From assembly GCF_045037415.1 (NCBI RefSeq), contig NZ_CP173438.1: 64,000 bases of DNA, one strand, 5' to 3'. The translations under genes and the position numbers were made by a program. Position 1 is the first letter of the stretch; each line of letters opens with the position of its first letter. This DNA comes from Escherichia coli. GTDB taxonomy: Bacteria > Pseudomonadota > Gammaproteobacteria > Enterobacterales > Enterobacteriaceae. Below, piece after piece: positions 9,414 to 32,633 of this stretch. Under the pieces are notes generated by a model. That model saw only the letters and a program-made list of their open reading frames with translations. It was not told the DNA's origin and searched no databases.

Positions 9414-11242
9414 GTGATCAGTTTGACGCAAAAGCGTTTTTAAAAACCGTAACCAGCCAGCCAGGCGTTTATCGCATGTATGATGCTGGTGGTACGGTTA
9501 TCTATGTCGGCAAAGCGAAAGACCTGAAAAAACGGCTTTCCAGCTATTTCCGTAGCAACCTCGCTTCGCGCAAAACCGAAGCGCTGGTCGCCCAGATCCA
9601 GCAAATTGATGTAACGGTTACTCATACAGAAACCGAAGCGCTGTTACTGGAACACAACTACATCAAACTTTATCAGCCGCGTTACAACGTTTTGCTACGC
9701 GATGATAAATCATATCCTTTTATCTTCCTGAGTGGCGATACCCACCCGCGTCTGGCGATGCATCGTGGAGCGAAGCATGCCAAAGGTGAATATTTCGGCC
9801 CGTTCCCGAATGGCTATGCCGTACGTGAAACACTGGCGCTACTGCAAAAGATTTTCCCCATTCGCCAGTGCGAAAACAGTGTTTATCGCAACCGCTCGCG
9901 TCCGTGTCTGCAATATCAGATAGGGCGCTGTCTGGGGCCGTGCGTTGAAGGACTGGTGAGTGAAGAAGAATACGCTCAGCAGGTCGAGTATGTGCGCCTG
10001 TTTTTGTCTGGCAAAGATGATCAGGTGCTTACGCAACTCATTAGTCGTATGGAAACTGCCAGCCAGAATCTGGAGTTTGAAGAAGCGGCGCGGATTCGCG
10101 ACCAAATTCAGGCGGTGCGACGTGTCACCGAAAAACAGTTTGTTTCCAATACCGGCGACGACCTTGACGTTATTGGAGTGGCGTTCGATGCGGGTATGGC
10201 TTGTGTCCACGTATTGTTCATTCGTCAGGGCAAAGTGCTCGGCAGCCGCAGCTATTTCCCGAAAGTGCCTGGCGGTACGGAACTGAGCGAGGTGGTGGAA
10301 ACCTTCGTAGGTCAGTTCTATTTACAAGGCAGCCAGATGCGCACCTTACCGGGTGAGATCCTGCTCGATTTTAATCTTAGCGATAAAACGCTGCTCGCCG
10401 ATTCCCTTTCAGAACTGGCGGGACGCAAGATTAATGTTCAAACCAAACCTCGTGGCGATAGAGCGCGTTATCTGAAACTCGCGCGTACCAATGCGGCGAC
10501 GGCCTTAACCAGCAAACTTTCGCAGCAATCTACCGTTCACCAGCGGCTGACCGCGCTTGCCAGCGTGTTGAAATTGCCGGAAGTGAAGCGGATGGAGTGC
10601 TTTGACATCAGCCATACCATGGGTGAACAAACCGTCGCTTCCTGTGTGGTGTTTGATGCCAACGGCCCGCTGCGTGCGGAGTATCGGCGCTATAACATTA
10701 CTGGCATCACGCCGGGCGATGATTACGCGGCGATGAATCAGGTGCTGCGTCGGCGTTATGGTAAAGCTATCGACGACAGTAAGATCCCGGATGTGATCCT
10801 TATTGACGGCGGCAAAGGCCAGCTTGCGCAGGCGAAAAATGTTTTCGCCGAACTGGATGTCTCATGGGATAAAAATCATCCGCTGCTACTTGGCGTTGCC
10901 AAAGGAGCAGATCGTAAGGCTGGGCTGGAAACGCTGTTCTTTGAGCCGGAAGGTGAGGGATTTAGTTTGCCGCCAGATTCTCCCGCGCTGCATGTTATCC
11001 AGCATATTCGCGATGAATCACACGATCACGCGATTGGCGGGCACCGTAAAAAACGGGCGAAGGTCAAAAATACCAGTTCCCTGGAAACCATTGAAGGCGT
11101 CGGGCCAAAACGTCGGCAAATGTTGTTGAAATATATGGGCGGTTTGCAAGGTTTACGTAACGCCAGCGTCGAGGAAATTGCAAAAGTGCCGGGTATTTCG
11201 CAAGGTCTGGCAGAAAAGATCTTCTGGTCGTTGAAACATTGA
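9410..11242 (+). CDS. uvrC: excinuclease ABC subunit C
   Basis: 610 aa. GIY-YIG N-terminus ([24 protein letters not shown]). Overlaps the uvrY stop. Confidence 0.97.
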
Positions 11243-18214: not shown

Positions 18215-18608
18215 CTATTTTGTCTGGTTTTTGGCTTCAAGTAGTTCTTTTAGCAGTAGATCGAAGTGCTCTCTTTTTTCTTTTAGCTCATTGATTAATT
18301 TATTTTTTTCGCTCTCAGGCAGTCCTCTGAATAGTTGCAGTAGAGCCTGTTCTTGCGGGGTTAGTTCTTGATTGTAATTACCCGGGTGTAGTGTGGATTC
18401 ATCCAAATATTCCCCTTCATTCATGAAGAAAAAATGAACAGGGTATCCGGTCACTTTTGCTAGCTTGTCTAATTTATCTTTTCTTGGAGTTACCCCATTA
18501 CACCATGCCTGAACTGATTGAGCCGTAACCCCAATATGGCGAGCTAACTCAGATTGAGAACCAGCCTAAGTCTTTTAGAATCCGTTGTAGTCGGCTAGCA
18601 AAAGCCAT
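18215..18608 (-). pseudogene. CI-type HTH (XRE) repressor interrupted by a 1-nt frameshift
   Basis: ATG at 18608 gives MAFASRLQRILKDLGW and then a TGA. The next frame continues SQSELARHIGVTAQSVQAWCNGVTPRKDKLDKLAKVTGYPVHFFF... into ORF 18215..18454. The span is 394 nt, i.e. 131 codons plus 1. Confidence 0.75.
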
Positions 18609-28046: not shown

Positions 28047-28652
28047 TTACTTGCGTTTAAAAAGGTATTTTGTCACGACCAGCACGAGGCCGAATACCTC
28101 TGTCAAAGTACCGCCCATGTACAACTGTAGTGTTAAATCCTCAAATTCCAGCTTACCTGCGCCGTCGGCAATAAATACACCATTCATTATCAGAAGTTGG
28201 AAAGCAAGGATAATCAGGAACCATTTCCCGTATCGTTTTTTTAGAGCGATTTCTGCTTCAAAATCTTTGTTGTTGAGTTGTTTGCGCTCATGCTCGGTAT
28301 CAAGTGAATTCACCTGTTTCACAGATGTGAACTCGGTCAAGATTTTACTCTCAGTACGGGTGACTTGTTGAGAGGGTGTAGCAGTTGGAATTCTTTTGCT
28401 AGACGCAGCTACAGCCATTTTGCGAGCTTCGGCAGCTCTTTTTCTGGCTATTCCGCGAATACGGACAGCCGTTTTTTTGGGGGCGTGCGAAACCTTTGGC
28501 TGAGGTGAAGCTTCGTCAGGAGACTGAACCGGAGTTTCATCGTCCTCCGGCTCAACCTCTTCTGCTAACTGACGGTGTAGGTTGAGGGAATCCTTCAGTC
28601 TGCGTGCTACTTCCTGTTTGAAACGGCTGTTAAAATCGTCATCCGATGGCAT
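28047..28652 (-). CDS. two-TM membrane protein with a charged, disordered N-terminal region (candidate effector)
   Basis: 201 aa. Hydrophobic helices WFLIILAFQLLIMNGVFIA and GGTLTEVFGLVLVVTKYLF. Starts 9 nt after the peptidase gene. Confidence 0.7.
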   Translation of the reverse strand: MPSDDDFNSRFKQEVARRLKDSLNLHRQLAEEVEPEDDETPVQSPDEASPQPKVSHAPKKTAVRIRGIARKRAAEARKMAVAASSKRIPTATPSQQVTRTESKILTEFTSVKQVNSLDTEHERKQLNNKDFEAEIALKKRYGKWFLIILAFQLLIMNGVFIADGAGKLEFEDLTLQLYMGGTLTEVFGLVLVVTKYLFKRK

Positions 28653-28661
28653 TTTAAAGCG

Positions 28662-29150
28662 TTACCCCAACCTCAAGTTCTTTAAACGATAAGTCATCGC
28701 ATCGTCAGATACGCCAAAATAATGCGCCATTATATAACTTGGTTGACCGTCAGCGTGCAGTTTTCTGACCTCATCTACCGGCATCAGAAGTTCTGCTGCG
28801 AACTTGTTTGCAAAAATTTCATCAGGATGCGTTCCGGCGCTTGCGGTTTCGCCACGTAAATCAACGTACTCATATTCATCGCTATGCGATGCTTGCCGGG
28901 CGATGTAATGCCCCAACTCATGCCCACATGAAAAACGTTGACGAACTTTGTTGTCATCACTGTTTAGAAAGATCGCTGGATCTTGATCTTTTTGTTTAAT
29001 CAGTGCGCCAGAAACTTTCCCAGGAAGATCGGTAATAAAAACATCTAATCCCATGTCGTGAGCAATTTTCGCTGGATCAACAGGGAAACCACGCCCGCAC
29101 CAGAACGTGTCCAGCACTCGCCGGGCGTGCTCTCTTGGGTTGGTAGCCAT
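28662..29150 (-). CDS. ImmA/IrrE-family (M78) zinc metallopeptidase, stand-alone
   Basis: 162 aa. HExxH in FSCGHELGHYIARQ. GGAGG RBS. No HTH domain or adjacent HTH gene. Confidence 0.8.
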   Translation of the reverse strand: MATNPREHARRVLDTFWCGRGFPVDPAKIAHDMGLDVFITDLPGKVSGALIKQKDQDPAIFLNSDDNKVRQRFSCGHELGHYIARQASHSDEYEYVDLRGETASAGTHPDEIFANKFAAELLMPVDEVRKLHADGQPSYIMAHYFGVSDDAMTYRLKNLRLG

Positions 29151-30025: not shown

Positions 30026-30667
30026 ATGAAAACCTTCTATGAGGACTGGCCTGAAACTTTCGTTAGCCGGTTAGATATGTTACGGGCGTTGGATGATCGC
30101 GGTTCGACCCGGAGGCTCTATCTTGAACGGACCGGGGCAATATTTGACGCTCTGGCAGAAGAGATACGTACAGTCGTTGCCGGGCATCCTGAAATCGACG
30201 TGAGTGAACTTGATATCGGGCCGCTGTATCGCTATTACAAACGTGGAGAAAAGGGGAATCCGCTGGCTGACTTACTTATTGAGTTGGCTCCACCAACTTG
30301 TGAACGGGTTCGTATATCTCCTGAAGTGTACATAATCCCGTATCTGTTTTTTGCACTGTTGATAGCGCAAGGCGCTGACAACGATGCCCGCGATTTTTTC
30401 AATATGATGATGCGACCGTTAATCATCGCCTACCGTTTCAAACAACTGGCGCGATACCTGGGAACAAAGGGCGGAGGACGACCACAGCACAGATTAAAAA
30501 GCGAAGCCATTGAACTGGCTGATCGTTTTTTTACTGAAAACCCGACAGCGCCATTATCGCGTGGCGTGCAATACATATCCGGTATTTTTGTGGCGAAATA
30601 CTCTGACCCACCTGCAGCGTCGACGATTAGAAAATGGTTAATTCCAATTTACAGGAGTGATAAATAA
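30026..30667 (+). CDS. hypothetical protein (cargo gene)
   Basis: 213 aa from the ATG with a GAGG RBS. No motif I recognise. Confidence 0.55.
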   Translation: MKTFYEDWPETFVSRLDMLRALDDRGSTRRLYLERTGAIFDALAEEIRTVVAGHPEIDVSELDIGPLYRYYKRGEKGNPLADLLIELAPPTCERVRISPEVYIIPYLFFALLIAQGADNDARDFFNMMMRPLIIAYRFKQLARYLGTKGGGRPQHRLKSEAIELADRFFTENPTAPLSRGVQYISGIFVAKYSDPPAASTIRKWLIPIYRSDK

Positions 30668-30760
30668 TGACCATAAACGGTTTAATCCCCTATAAAACCG
30701 TTTAATAAAATTCACGACGTGAATATAATTGTTCATTATTCCCTCATTGTATTTGGCGTT

Positions 30761-30796
30761 ATGACAAATGCCATAAAATACTGTATAAATATACAG
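30761..30796 (+). promoter_or_regulatory. sigma-70 promoter overlapped by a LexA (SOS) box
   Basis: ATGACA-N17-TATAAA. CTGTATAAATATACAG at 30781..30796 fits CTGT-N8-ACAG and the TACTGTATATATATACAGTA consensus. Confidence 0.6.
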
Positions 30797-30818
30797 GTTG
30801 TGGCATTGGGGGGAAGAC

Positions 30819-30998
30819 ATGAATATTCAAGAATCTATAGGCGAACTACCGGAAACATGCCGGGCTGTTATCAAGCGTAAGGACGGACACATCGTTGGTG
30901 TGCGTGTTCTGACCGATGATGAGCGGATTGCCAGCCTGATGGCGTTTCTCGAGTTGGCAGAAATAGCTGGATATACTATTACACCCCCTGACGCGTAA
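30819..30998 (+). CDS. small SOS-controlled protein (antirepressor candidate)
   Basis: 59 aa. ATG directly after GGGGGGAAGAC. First ORF downstream of the LexA box. Confidence 0.45.
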   Translation: MNIQESIGELPETCRAVIKRKDGHIVGVRVLTDDERIASLMAFLELAEIAGYTITPPDA

Positions 30999-31075
30999 AA
31001 CACGGTATAATATCGGTGCTGGATTGAACACCCGGCATCATTTTCTGAACACTGCCGCGCCACCTGGAGTTAACC

Positions 31076-31672
31076 ATGGCGCAGCATTCATTTATCAGGG
31101 TATCCGGCGGTTCGCTAATACCCGCGACACCAGACACGCAACGCTGGTTGACTGAACGAGTCAAACCAGGTGCTGTTGTGTATGCAGATTTCAAACAGGC
31201 GCGTAATCCCGCGTTTCATCGTAAATTTTTCTCACTTCTCAACCTGGGCTTTGATTACTGGCATCCGTCCGGAGGGGCTATTTCTCCTGCGGAGCGCGAA
31301 CTGGTTCACGGCTACGTTAAGTTACTGGCGTATTACGGTGGACACGGTGATGTCATGGCAGAGCTGGCTGATCAGTATCTTCTCGATGAGTCGGAAAAGC
31401 GCGCGGGGAGTATCAGTGCGGTGAAGTCGTTCGAGGCGTTTCGCGCATGGGCGATTATGGAAGCTGGGTTTTATGACGTTCATCAGATGCCAGACGGCAG
31501 TTTGATGCGCGTACCTCGTTCAATCTCGTTTGCAGCGATGGACGATCTTGAGTTCGGTCAACTGTATTCAGCCGTTTTAGATGTGCTGTGGAATTATATT
31601 TTGTTCCGCACATTTGCCTCTCAGGAGGCCGCTGAAAATGCCGCCGCGCAGCTGCTGGATTACACATCATGA
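31076..31672 (+). CDS. DUF1367-like nin-region protein
   Basis: 198 aa. N-terminal pattern FIRVSGGSLIPATPDTQRWL...ADFKQARNPAFHRKFFSLL resembles DUF1367 as I recall it. Confidence 0.55.
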   Translation: MAQHSFIRVSGGSLIPATPDTQRWLTERVKPGAVVYADFKQARNPAFHRKFFSLLNLGFDYWHPSGGAISPAERELVHGYVKLLAYYGGHGDVMAELADQYLLDESEKRAGSISAVKSFEAFRAWAIMEAGFYDVHQMPDGSLMRVPRSISFAAMDDLEFGQLYSAVLDVLWNYILFRTFASQEAAENAAAQLLDYTS

Positions 31673-31962
31673 AAAAAATCGACCTGAGAAAAGCTGCACG
31701 CAGTCGCGCTTGTACTGTGCGTATCCCCGGTGTGTGCAATCACAATCCTGAAACCAGCGTACTGGCTCATTATCGTCTCGCCGGAACGTGCGGCACAGCC
31801 ATCAAACCTCACGATATGCAGGGCGCTATCGCCTGCAGTGCGTGTCACGATGCCATCGACGGACGTACAAAAACGGATTACGAGCACGACTCATTGTTGT
31901 TGATGCACGCTGAGGGAGTTTTCAGAACACTGGCTATCTGGCGCGATGAGGAGTTTATCTGA
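31669..31962 (+). CDS. YbcO-like protein (DUF1364)
   Basis: 97 aa. DLRKAARSRACTVRIPGVCNHNPETSVLAHYRL...ACSACHDAIDGR closely parallels DLP12 YbcO. Confidence 0.75.
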   Translation: MKKIDLRKAARSRACTVRIPGVCNHNPETSVLAHYRLAGTCGTAIKPHDMQGAIACSACHDAIDGRTKTDYEHDSLLLMHAEGVFRTLAIWRDEEFI

Positions 31963-32633
31963 TGAGTAACGAGTATTTATTGGAATATACCCGCATAAAA
32001 CTGCGCGCTGCATTGCGGGATTTGTCTGGTGGTTCTAAGGGGCAACTGGAAGCATTGTGTGAGCACCCACCGGCAGACAAAAACGCATACCCACGCAAAC
32101 ATATTCACCGTGTGCAGCTGGAGGACCGGACCGTTGATGCTCTGGTTACGCCAGTTTACGCTCTGGAAAGTTTCAGCAGACGTCGCCCCGCGCCGCCGAT
32201 GAGTGATTTTGAATTTGCTGATTCATCCTGGCGGCGTTCTGTGAACTCGCTGGATGCAAGTCAGCAAGCGTGGTTGCGTTATTGCTACGGTGGTAACCTG
32301 GCATTCAAACACCAAACAGCTATTTGTGAGGCTGTCTGGAGTCGCTATAAAGGAAACATCCCCGCGTCAACTCAGAGAAAAGTAGTTAAGCGCCTGCTTT
32401 CGTTGGTGTGGTTGTCCGTGCAGGCGGTCGCAGCAGCAAATAAACGCGAGGATTTTAAGGAGATGGCCGGATCTACCCTAGCAGGAATGCTGTCGGTTTC
32501 TCGTTCCACCTGGTGCGAAACATACTCCCTGCACTGGGTAGGAATGAAAGAGGCGGTGAGAGCACTTGATGAAGTGGCACTTCTTGCAACTTTGCATCAT
32601 TATCAGAACCATTTAGACGACGTTTGCGTATAA
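31962..32633 (+). CDS. late-gene antiterminator Q-like protein
   Basis: 223 aa. Immediately upstream of a promoter and terminator leader and the lysis genes. QAWLRYCYGG region resembles the Phage_antitermQ family. Confidence 0.6.
   Translation: MSNEYLLEYTRIKLRAALRDLSGGSKGQLEALCEHPPADKNAYPRKHIHRVQLEDRTVDALVTPVYALESFSRRRPAPPMSDFEFADSSWRRSVNSLDASQQAWLRYCYGGNLAFKHQTAICEAVWSRYKGNIPASTQRKVVKRLLSLVWLSVQAVAAANKREDFKEMAGSTLAGMLSVSRSTWCETYSLHWVGMKEAVRALDEVALLATLHHYQNHLDDVCV

What the first reader, a model, noticed from the sequence alone, without database searches (positions are those of the whole stretch)
30761..30998. Consensus LexA box overlapping a promoter in front of a 59-aa ORF and the DUF1367-DUF1364-Q operon
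Seen: CTGTATAAATATACAG (30781-30796, CTGT-N8-ACAG) overlaps the -10 of ATGACA-N17-TATAAA. The next ORF (ATG 30819, 59 aa) is followed in the same direction by the Q-like antiterminator operon. The prophage repressor (18215-18608) has an HTH but no S24 self-cleavage domain.

Established: Gifsy-type prophages and coliphage 186 (Tum) are induced through LexA-controlled small antirepressors rather than by repressor cleavage.

Inference: the 59-aa protein is an SOS-induced antirepressor, and/or LexA directly gates transcription into Q and hence late genes.
Basis: partly seen in the sequence, partly recalled or inferred. Interest (0 to 1): 0.55.

Follow-up and report, generated by a model that had tools for sequence, protein, structure and literature searches.

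The report
SOS-controlled prophage antirepressor gene
A small unannotated gene in a common E. coli ST131 prophage is a DNA-damage-controlled antirepressor of the kind that wakes Salmonella Gifsy prophages; this is an ordinary but previously unlabelled member of a known switch.

Summary
TACTGTATAAATATACAGGT (30779-30798) is the only LexA-like site in the 64-kb window. It overlaps the -10 of ATGACA-N17-TATAAA and ends 20 nt before a 59-aa ORF, which is followed by DUF1367 (irsA homologue), YbcO and Q.

The 59-aa protein falls in phrog_340 together with three experimentally proven antirepressors: GfoA (Gifsy-1), FsoA (Fels-1) and Rem (Qin). Pairwise BLASTP E-values to GfoA and FsoA are 6e-10 and 3e-8, and hhalign probabilities are 93-98%. 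The intact repressor allele (130 aa in EC958) is a full-length homologue of the non-cleavable GtgR/GfoR/DicA repressors. Relatives at 30-45% identity in other genera keep a LexA box about 20 nt upstream, within otherwise unrelated sequence.

Differences from Gifsy are the absence of dinI and a protein reduced to the minimal 59-aa core. In this window the repressor gene carries a 1-nt frameshift. Whether LexA also gates Q is unresolved.

I also found a covarying stem-loop (31015-39) directly after antirepressor genes across many phages. It has no Rfam match and is the most novel item here. Verdict: new member of a known kind.

The parts
30761..30766 (+). -35 hexamer ATGACA of the LexA-controlled promoter
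   Evidence: Read directly. Invariant in relatives L004-L010 while the spacer varies.
30784..30789 (+). -10 hexamer TATAAA (17-nt spacer), lying inside the LexA box
   Evidence: It matches 5 of 6 consensus positions. The tool scan skipped it only because the last base is not T.
30779..30798 (.). LexA (SOS) box TACTGTATAAATATACAGGT; core CTGT-N8-ACAG at 30781-30796
   Evidence: Matches 17 of 20 consensus positions, reached by 0 of 100 shuffles. It is the only such site in the window. It is conserved in relatives and in distant homologues.
30808..30816 (+). Shine-Dalgarno-like GGGGGGAAG
   Evidence: A G-rich run is kept in relatives.
30819..30998 (+). 59-aa antirepressor gene (GfoA/FsoA/Rem family, phrog_340)
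   Evidence: phrog_340 E=1.6e-20. BLASTP to FsoA E=3e-8 and to GfoA E=6e-10. hhalign to FsoA 98.1%, to an Enterobacter GfoA-like protein 97.9%, to GfoA 95.9%, to Rem 93.5%. AF2 model pLDDT 87.
31015..31039 (+). Conserved stem-loop (8 bp here; 5-bp covarying core 31018-22/31032-36; loop ATTGAACAC), followed by TTTTCT at 31041-46
   Evidence: MFE -11.8 kcal/mol. Across 11 sequences, 55 of 55 cells pair and 4 of 5 pairs show compensatory changes, reached by 0 of 500 shuffles. Found once per locus, directly after the antirepressor stop codon. No Rfam match.
31076..31672 (+). DUF1367 / NinB-like gene, homologue of Gifsy irsA (STM1020)
   Evidence: PF07105 E=6e-78. The irsA deletion primer pp644 matches the start of STM1020.
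31669..31962 (+). YbcO/DUF1364 putative nuclease gene
   Evidence: PF07102 E=3e-40.
31962..32633 (+). Q antiterminator gene
   Evidence: PF06323 E=3e-38.
18215..18608 (-). Presumed target: prophage repressor gene (GtgR/GfoR/DicA family), frameshifted in this window
   Evidence: A 1-nt insertion relative to EC958 WP_000853106.1. The intact 130-aa protein is 33% identical to GtgR over 129 aa (E=5e-22) and matches DicA at E=7e-11.

Best explanation
The 59-aa ORF (30819-30998) encodes a small antirepressor of the GfoA/FsoA/Rem family. It is transcribed from a sigma-70 promoter (ATGACA-N17-TATAAA) whose -10 and start site are covered by a single strong LexA box.

Proposed mechanism:
1. In an undamaged lysogen, LexA occupies the box and keeps the gene off. 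The short, non-cleavable HTH repressor (GtgR/DicA family, 130 aa when intact) holds the prophage silent.
2. DNA damage activates RecA, and LexA cleaves itself.
3. The antirepressor accumulates, binds the repressor and removes it from its operators.
4. The early operons are then derepressed, followed by Q and the late genes.

Shown here: the sequence features, their conservation, the family membership of both proteins, and the synteny with Gifsy. Inferred from experiments on homologues: LexA binding, SOS induction, and the protein-protein interaction.

The locus differs from Gifsy in having no dinI, so the antirepressor is the first gene after the box, and in a protein trimmed to the conserved core.
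For: 1. LexA box. It matches 17 of 20 consensus positions, is unique in 64 kb, and was reached by 0 of 100 shuffles. It ends 20 nt from the ATG. The Gifsy boxes, which are induced 5- to 23-fold by nalidixic acid, lie 19 bp from the ATG (PMC8072944).

2. Conservation. The box is kept in close relatives while flanks vary. It is also kept upstream of 30-45%-identical homologues in Raoultella/Klebsiella-type prophages, phage BUCT708 and Edaphovirga, within unrelated upstream DNA.

3. Protein family. The protein hits phrog_340 at E=1.6e-20. The same PHROG is hit by GfoA (4e-20), FsoA (1e-26) and Rem (4e-21). BLASTP gives 3e-8 to FsoA and 6e-10 to GfoA. hhalign gives 93.5-98.1%. I fixed the identities of FsoA, GfoA and GftA from the primer sequences in Table S1 of PMC3121763.

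4. Repressor. The intact allele is 33% identical to GtgR over its full length (E=5e-22). The four other prophages carrying a family member in this slot whose immunity region was within reach all have 128-134-aa repressors of this family.

5. Synteny. LexA box, (dinI), antirepressor, DUF1367/irsA and then Q occur in Gifsy-1/2, Enterobacter prophages, coliphage mEp237 and phage SPN3UB. In Qin, rem sits in the same slot.
Against: There are no experimental data for this locus. The protein does not reach any model in the local Pfam copy. The precomputed PF27490 'Rem' hits on relatives are only 'faint'.

A relative with a 98.9%-identical repressor gene has an antirepressor only 76% identical. There is therefore no sign of tight co-evolution, although the differences are confined to the N-terminal half.

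Some family members in this slot lack a LexA box: L017, L019 and Qin rem.

In this particular window the repressor gene is frameshifted. Here the circuit either has no intact target or the extra base is a sequencing error.
Confidence: 0.78

Rival explanations
1. The main job of the LexA-controlled promoter is to drive DUF1367-YbcO-Q, so that LexA directly gates late-gene antitermination. The small ORF would be incidental, or this function would operate in addition to antirepression.
For: All four genes are on the same strand. The gap is 77 nt, and the three downstream genes have overlapping stop and start codons. Lemire et al. describe dinI-gftA-irsA as one LexA-regulated operon.
Against: A conserved hairpin lies between the small ORF and DUF1367. 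In this phage it is 8 bp long (-11.8 kcal/mol) with a TTTTCT tail, so it could terminate or process the transcript. In Gifsy-2, expressing gftA alone is enough for induction (PMC3121763). The small protein's homology to three proven antirepressors means it is not incidental.
Confidence: 0.25
2. The small protein is a partner or regulator of the DUF1367/NinB-like recombination function, forming an SOS-induced recombination module, and is not an antirepressor.
For: It lies directly upstream of DUF1367 in many lineages, including a distant phage.
Against: Family members also occur without DUF1367: L018, L019, Qin rem (followed by ydfU), and Fels-1 fsoA and the Stx-phage copies in the left operon. 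FsoA, GfoA and Rem have demonstrated antirepressor activity. Non-polar irsA deletions had no effect on Gifsy induction (PMC3121763).
Confidence: 0.06
3. Induction works through the ImmA/IrrE (CapP-like) metallopeptidase at 28662-29150, which would cleave the repressor. The LexA-box gene would be accessory.
For: Peptidase_M78 E=8e-18. PADLOC capP E=2e-25. ImmA- and CapP-type proteases are known to cleave HTH repressors after DNA damage (my own knowledge).
Against: The peptidase lies on the opposite strand, in a variable cargo region. It is absent from close relatives (L008-L011), and L010 among them has a 98.9%-identical repressor gene. It is not adjacent to the repressor.
Confidence: 0.06
4. 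The LexA box is a chance or decayed match with no regulatory role.
For: CTGT-N8-ACAG alone is expected 0.63 times per window. One relative (L010) has lost correct spacing through a 2-nt deletion.
Against: The 17-of-20 match was never reached in shuffles. It is positioned over the -10 and the start site. It recurs at the same distance in unrelated upstream sequences of distant homologues and in Gifsy.
Confidence: 0.03

Closest known systems
[quoted passage not shown]
   Same: Same protein family (phrog_340; BLASTP E=6e-10, hhalign 95.9%). LexA box about 20 nt before the first ORF. Gene located outside the immunity region, directly upstream of the irsA/DUF1367 gene and Q. Cognate repressor of the short non-cleavable GfoR/GtgR type.
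   Different: There is no dinI gene between the LexA box and the antirepressor. The protein is 59 aa rather than 82 aa and lacks the N-terminal ~20 residues (WYD.VRR segment). Identity is only about 33%. The host is E. coli ST131.
FsoA of Salmonella prophage Fels-1 (PMC3121763)
   Same: One of the closest characterised homologues (41% identity over 39 aa, E=3e-8; hhalign 98.1%).
   Different: fsoA lies in the early-left operon under the phage's own cleavable repressor, not under LexA. It acts in trans on Gifsy-2 GtgR. The more distant Stx-phage and ASU11 homologues of the 59-aa protein sit in that left-operon position and have no LexA box.
Rem, antirepressor of DicA in E. coli K-12 cryptic prophage Qin (Ragunathan et al. 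2023, PMC10448788); Pfam PF27490 'Rem'
   Same: Same PHROG; hhalign 93.5% over 48 columns. Same slot, upstream of the nin-type gene and Q (ydfU-ydfT). The target, DicA, is in the same repressor family. A related CUGAAC-loop hairpin follows the gene.
   Different: Rem is 83 aa. There is no LexA box upstream of rem, and its inducing signal is unknown according to the paper. The ST131 prophage copy has an intact SOS box.
GftA of Gifsy-2 (STM1020.1n, phrog_4847)
   Same: Same genomic slot, the same LexA-controlled operon logic, and the same downstream hairpin.
   Different: No detectable sequence relationship to the 59-aa protein (no BLASTP alignment; hhalign 9.8%; different PHROG).
Tum of coliphage 186 and AntC of N15 (LexA-controlled antirepressors)
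   Same: Same logic: LexA represses a small antirepressor that inactivates a non-cleavable repressor (as summarised in PMC3121763).
   Different: Different phage types. Tum is 146 aa with a DinI-like C-terminal half. I did not test homology to the 59-aa protein.

Membership tests
GfoA/FsoA/Rem small antirepressors (phrog_340; Pfam PF27490 'Rem') | Significant sequence similarity to experimentally characterised members | tested here: met
   phrog_340 E=1.6e-20 for the 59-aa protein; GfoA, FsoA and Rem hit the same PHROG at 4e-20, 1e-26 and 4e-21. BLASTP 3e-8 (FsoA) and 6e-10 (GfoA). hhalign 98.1%, 95.9% and 93.5%.
GfoA/FsoA/Rem small antirepressors (phrog_340; Pfam PF27490 'Rem') | Passes the curated Pfam PF27490 threshold | tested here: inconclusive
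   PF27490 is not in the local Pfam copy, so there is no hit. Precomputed hits on 30-45% relatives are only 'faint' and are absent for the closest relatives.
GfoA/FsoA/Rem small antirepressors (phrog_340; Pfam PF27490 'Rem') | Small single-domain protein (about 55-85 aa) with the conserved core LPxxGR...NG...R.L..DEhIAsL..F.ElA..AGY.I.pP | tested here: met
   Alignments A4, A5 and A7. AF2 model pLDDT 87, showing a beta-hairpin followed by a helix.
GfoA/FsoA/Rem small antirepressors (phrog_340; Pfam PF27490 'Rem') | Resident prophage has a short non-cleavable HTH repressor of the GfoR/GtgR/DicA family | tested here: met
   The EC958 allele (130 aa) matches GtgR at 33% over 129 aa, E=5e-22, and DicA at 7e-11. 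The L015-L018 repressors are in the same family. Caveat: the gene is frameshifted in this window.
GfoA/FsoA/Rem small antirepressors (phrog_340; Pfam PF27490 'Rem') | Binds the repressor and releases it from operator DNA | not testable with these tools
   This needs a pull-down, EMSA or reporter assay. No multimer prediction tool was available.
LexA-controlled Gifsy induction operon (dinI-antirepressor-irsA) | Consensus-like LexA box overlapping the promoter, about 20 nt before the first ORF | tested here: met
   17 of 20 match, ending 20 nt from the ATG; the Gifsy-2 box ends 19 nt from the ATG (PMC8072944).
LexA-controlled Gifsy induction operon (dinI-antirepressor-irsA) | dinI homologue as the first gene | tested here: not met
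   No ORF lies between the box and the antirepressor. dinI is present in Gifsy-1/2, Enterobacter prophages, mEp237 and SPN3UB.
LexA-controlled Gifsy induction operon (dinI-antirepressor-irsA) | irsA (DUF1367) homologue directly downstream, with Q further on | tested here: met
   PF07105 E=6e-78 and Q PF06323. irsA is identified with STM1020 through primer pp644.
LexA-controlled Gifsy induction operon (dinI-antirepressor-irsA) | Terminator-like palindrome just upstream of the LexA promoter | tested here: inconclusive
   There is an AT-rich hairpin at 30674-30704 (-9.2 kcal/mol, z=-2.6) with no U-tract. In relatives the two arms form a direct repeat rather than an inverted one.
LexA-controlled Gifsy induction operon (dinI-antirepressor-irsA) | Induced by DNA damage in a LexA-dependent way | not testable with these tools
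   This needs a reporter or RNA measurement with and without mitomycin C, and in a lexA(Ind-) strain.
GftA-type antirepressors (phrog_4847) | Sequence similarity to GftA | tested here: not met
   No BLASTP alignment. hhalign 9.8%. Different PHROG.

The most novel reading that the evidence does not exclude
The conserved stem-loop directly after the antirepressor stop codon may be an undescribed cis-acting RNA element that travels with nin-region antirepressor genes. In this window it is at 31015-31039, with a 5-bp covarying stem and a 9-nt loop YYUGAACAV that contains a YUNR motif.

It is found after both unrelated antirepressor families (GfoA/Rem type and GftA type). It persists whether the next gene is DUF1367, ydfU, a 101-aa ORF or a Q-like gene.

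It could set the 3' end or the stability of the SOS-induced antirepressor mRNA, or insulate the Q operon from the LexA promoter. Either role would provide the post-transcriptional control that transcriptomic work on Gifsy-2 called for, because gftA mRNA is detectable without induction (PMC7067206).
Probability: 0.4. Interest if true: 0.55.

Novelty: new member of a known kind. Interest (0 to 1): 0.36.

Why it matters
The prophage is present in 444 of 5,426 complete E. coli genomes, including the pandemic ST131 strains EC958 and JJ1886. In all listed records this gene is labelled 'hypothetical protein'.

Naming it as the SOS-triggered antirepressor identifies the switch by which DNA-damaging drugs such as fluoroquinolones would induce this prophage. 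In Salmonella, deleting the equivalent Gifsy-2 locus removes the prophage-dependent sensitisation to ciprofloxacin (PMC13320796).

The result also links three separately studied antirepressors (GfoA, FsoA, Rem) to one PHROG that is still annotated 'unknown function'. It further shows that an E. coli Rem-type protein can sit under an intact LexA box, whereas the inducing signal for Qin Rem is unknown.

The downstream hairpin is a testable candidate for post-transcriptional control of induction.

Tried and rejected
- **Pfam:** scans of the 59-aa protein found nothing, even at E<=10.
- **GftA:** direct BLASTP and hhalign to GftA were negative. GftA belongs to a different family, so the Gifsy-2 protein was the wrong comparator.
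- **gfoA primers:** exact-match scans of viral contigs found nothing. A degenerate C-terminal pattern on genome contigs did work.
- **FsoA against phages:** tblastn did not retrieve GfoA.
- **PDB:** the sequence-profile search gave only chance BamB-like hits. The Foldseek PDB search gave no match with E<=0.001. No solved relative exists.
- **Rfam:** the scan of 30500-31300 gave only sub-threshold snoRNA noise.
- **Upstream palindrome:** ATTCACGACGTGAAT (30710-30724) has no convincing second copy in the window (7 loose matches against 3.5 expected). I found no evidence that it is a phage operator.
- **Loop partner:** a search for a hairpin loop complementary to the UGAACA loop found only weak 4-bp AT stems, so no partner was identified.
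- **ImmA/IrrE peptidase:** considered as the induction route and rejected as unlikely (see rival explanations).
- **Literature:** I found no paper describing this ST131 prophage's induction switch.

Full report
**1. The observation**

The sequence is exactly as described.
- CTGTATAAATATACAG lies at 30781-30796.
- ATGACA (30761-66), a 17-nt spacer and TATAAA (30784-89) form a promoter that matches 10 of 12 consensus positions. Its -10 lies inside the box.
- A G-rich Shine-Dalgarno sequence (30808-16) precedes ATG 30819.
- The ORF 30819-30998 encodes 59 aa.
- DUF1367 (31076-31672), YbcO/DUF1364 (31669-31962) and Q (31962-32633) follow on the same strand, with overlapping stop and start codons.

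The bare CTGT-N8-ACAG pattern is not improbable (0.63 expected per window). The full 20-mer TACTGTATAAATATACAGGT, however, matches the E. coli consensus at 17 of 20 positions, which none of 100 shuffles reached. It is the only site in the whole window within 5 mismatches of the consensus.

**2. Where the window comes from**

The region is 100% identical to a prophage of E. coli ST131 strains (EC958, JJ1886 and others). It is found in 444 of 5,426 complete E. coli genomes and in the deposited phage vB_EcoM-705R4. The 59-aa ORF is annotated 'hypothetical protein' in the listed records.

The immunity region consists of a 130-aa HTH repressor facing a Cro-like gene and a YdaT-family gene, followed by replication genes.

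**3. The Gifsy comparison**

Lemire et al. (PMC3121763) showed that Gifsy prophages are induced by small antirepressors. These are encoded in a LexA-controlled operon, dinI-antirepressor-irsA, which lies outside the immunity region.

In Gifsy-2 the LexA box ends 19 nt before dinI. The order is dinI, STM1020.1n, then STM1020 (DUF1367), with Q further on. The irsA deletion primer pp644 matches the start of STM1020, so irsA is the DUF1367 gene. The window's ORF therefore occupies the antirepressor slot, but without dinI.

**4. Which protein is which**

I fixed the identities from the primers in Table S1 of PMC3121763.
- **GftA:** the primer encodes MAEGVLS..., which matches STM1020.1n.
- **FsoA:** the primers encode MNSQQMM... 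and ...EAGIRFEEISNVG, which match Fels-1 STM0898.2n.
- **GfoA:** the primers encode MSNSALQK... and ...RRLGYRVTPPSDI. A Salmonella protein (P0097, 82 aa) has exactly that N-terminus and contains RRLGYRVTPPSD.

**5. Homology**

The 59-aa protein shows nothing against GftA: no BLASTP alignment, hhalign 9.8%, and phrog_4847 rather than phrog_340.

It does match the other three characterised antirepressors.

| Comparator | BLASTP | hhalign probability |
|---|---|---|
| FsoA | 41% identity over 39 aa, E=3e-8 | 98.1% |
| GfoA | 33% identity over 51 aa, E=6e-10 | 95.9% |
| Enterobacter GfoA-like protein | E=6e-12 | 97.9% |
| K-12 Rem | not run | 93.5% over 48 columns |

An independent library agrees. 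GfoA, FsoA, Rem and the 59-aa protein all hit phrog_340, with E-values of 4e-20, 1e-26, 4e-21 and 1.6e-20. Rem is a demonstrated antirepressor of DicA (PMC10448788).

Precomputed annotations name a new Pfam family, PF27490 'Rem', on distant relatives, but only as faint hits. That model is missing from the local Pfam copy.

The family core is LPxxGR...NG...R.L..DEhIAsL..F.ElA..AGY.I.pP. The window protein is essentially this core alone. An AlphaFold model is confident (pLDDT 87) and shows a beta-hairpin plus a helix. There is no solved relative by sequence or by fold.

**6. The repressor**

The intact allele (EC958) is 33% identical to GtgR/GfoR over 129 of 130 residues (E=5e-22) and is related to DicA (E=7e-11). 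It shares the C-terminal LF..LPESEK motif with them. The repressors of four other prophages that carry a family member in the same slot (L015-L018) belong to the same family. None has an S24 domain.

**7. Conservation of the arrangement**

Close relatives (73-76% protein identity) keep the box and the -35 while the spacer varies. One carries the perfect consensus. One, ETEC1738, has a 2-nt deletion that gives CTGT-N6-ACAG.

Distant homologues (30-45% identity) in Raoultella/Klebsiella-type prophages and in phage BUCT708 have a box ending 22 nt before the start codon. An Edaphovirga prophage has one ending 127 nt upstream. In all of these the upstream DNA is otherwise unrelated.

Enterobacter prophages, coliphage mEp237 and phage SPN3UB have the full arrangement: box, dinI, a GfoA-type protein, then DUF1367.

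Members in the early-left operon (FsoA, ASU11, Stx phages) have no box, as expected for genes under the phage repressor. A Yersinia prophage, an Erwiniaceae remnant and Qin rem also lack one.

**8. Mechanism**

The best-supported reading is the Gifsy scheme. LexA sits over the -10 and start site. DNA damage removes LexA, the antirepressor accumulates and inactivates the non-cleavable repressor, and the early operons and Q follow. The sequence anatomy, the family memberships and the synteny are shown here. Binding, induction and the protein interaction are inferred from the homologues.

**9. Does LexA also gate Q?**

This remains unresolved. The genes are co-oriented and close together. However, a hairpin lies at 31015-31039 (8 bp, -11.8 kcal/mol, followed by TTTTCT) between the antirepressor gene and DUF1367.

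**10. The hairpin**

The hairpin is the most novel thing I found.
- It occurs once per locus, directly after the antirepressor stop codon. It is present in all nin-slot loci I examined except mEp237, where the gene's stop codon lies inside the loop sequence and I did not check the stem. It follows both GfoA-type and GftA-type genes, and a variant follows rem.
- The loop is conserved (YYUGAACAV) and contains a YUNR motif.
- The 5-bp stem covaries. All 55 cells pair, 4 of 5 pairs show compensatory changes, no shuffle out of 500 reached the observed values, and slid controls pair at only 15-45%.
- It is absent after the left-operon copies and from phage D3, which has DUF1367 but no antirepressor.
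- Rfam has no match.
- A transcriptomic study found gftA mRNA in most uninduced conditions and proposed post-transcriptional control (PMC7067206). This element is a candidate for that control.

**11. Caveats**

In this window the repressor gene carries an extra T at about 18560, which shifts the frame after codon 16. Among 40 sampled matching genomes, only NZ_CP146588.1 is 100% identical across the region, and the rest lack the extra base. It is therefore a private mutation or a sequencing error.

There is no evidence of tight antirepressor-repressor co-evolution. A 98.9%-identical repressor gene is paired with a 76%-identical antirepressor, and the differences lie in the N-terminal half.

**12. 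Verdict**

The locus is a previously unlabelled, dinI-less, minimal member of the known LexA-controlled GfoA/FsoA/Rem antirepressor switch. It is useful for annotation and for understanding SOS and antibiotic induction of an ST131 prophage, but it is not a surprise to specialists. The downstream hairpin deserves separate follow-up.

Noticed in passing
window 31015-31039 (core 31018-22/31032-36); also L003 11718, L023 3633(-), L004-L011 ~10200, L014 3170, L015-L019 ~10200, L025-L029, L031, L032; variant in L020 after rem: A conserved stem-loop lies directly after nin-region antirepressor genes. It has a 5-bp covarying stem and a 9-nt loop YYTGAACAV containing a YUNR motif, and it is followed by a conserved leader (..TGCGCCAC(C)GGAG..ATGGC) even when the next gene differs. 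All 55 cells pair and 4 of 5 pairs are compensatory. There is no Rfam match. It is absent after the left-operon homologues and in phage D3.
   Followed up: partly
window ~18559-18560 within 18215-18608 (-): The prophage repressor gene has a 1-nt insertion (an extra T on the coding strand) relative to EC958, which shifts the frame after codon 16. Among 40 sampled hits, only NZ_CP146588.1 (strain A1.S1.126) is 100% identical. This is either a private inactivating mutation or a sequencing error.
   Followed up: partly
L010 ~9965-9978 (E. coli ETEC1738, CP122768.1): This relative has a 2-nt (TA) deletion inside the LexA box, giving CTGT-N6-ACAG. That should abolish LexA binding and might make the antirepressor constitutive, or reflect a defective prophage. 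Its repressor gene is intact and 98.9% identical.
   Followed up: no
window 28662-29150 (-), with the 201-aa ORF at 28047-28652 (-): An ImmA/IrrE metallopeptidase matches PADLOC capP, the DNA-damage-sensing protease of CBASS regulation (E=2e-25). No adjacent HTH partner is present. It lies in a variable cargo region that holds GmrSD, SMEK, LprI, ORF6N or methyltransferase genes in relatives.
   Followed up: partly
window 30702-30729 and 30710-30724: A second promoter-like site, TTAATA-16-TATAAT (10 of 12 match), lies upstream of the LexA promoter. Its spacer holds a perfect 15-bp palindrome, ATTCACGACGTGAAT. The palindrome is imperfect in relatives and has no convincing second copy in the window.
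   Followed up: partly
window 30674-30704: An AT-rich hairpin, AAACGGTTT-N11-AAACCGTTT (-9.2 kcal/mol, z=-2.6), sits where Gifsy phages have a terminator, but it has no U-tract. In relatives the two 9-mers form a direct repeat about 20 bp apart, which looks more like protein-binding sites than a terminator.
   Followed up: no
PHROGs phrog_340; the RefSeq/PGAP annotation of window 30819-30998: phrog_340 is labelled 'unknown function' although GfoA, FsoA and Rem, three experimentally characterised antirepressors, all fall in it. PGAP calls the ST131 gene 'hypothetical protein' in the listed genomes.
   Followed up: yes
L014 2929-2948 (phage vB_SmeS_BUCT708, OM816834.1): A phage recorded as infecting Stenotrophomonas carries an E. 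coli-type LexA box (CACTGTTTTTATATACAGTA). Its antirepressor-hairpin-DUF1367 module is nearly the same as in Raoultella/Klebsiella-type prophages (L015, L016). From memory, Xanthomonadales use a different SOS box, so the recorded host or the regulation deserves a look.
   Followed up: no
window 31006-31011: A TATAAT hexamer lies just after the antirepressor stop codon and 4 nt before the hairpin. The surrounding CGGTATAAT is shared with relatives and with the Yersinia locus L017. There is no good -35 and the promoter scan did not report it.
   Followed up: no
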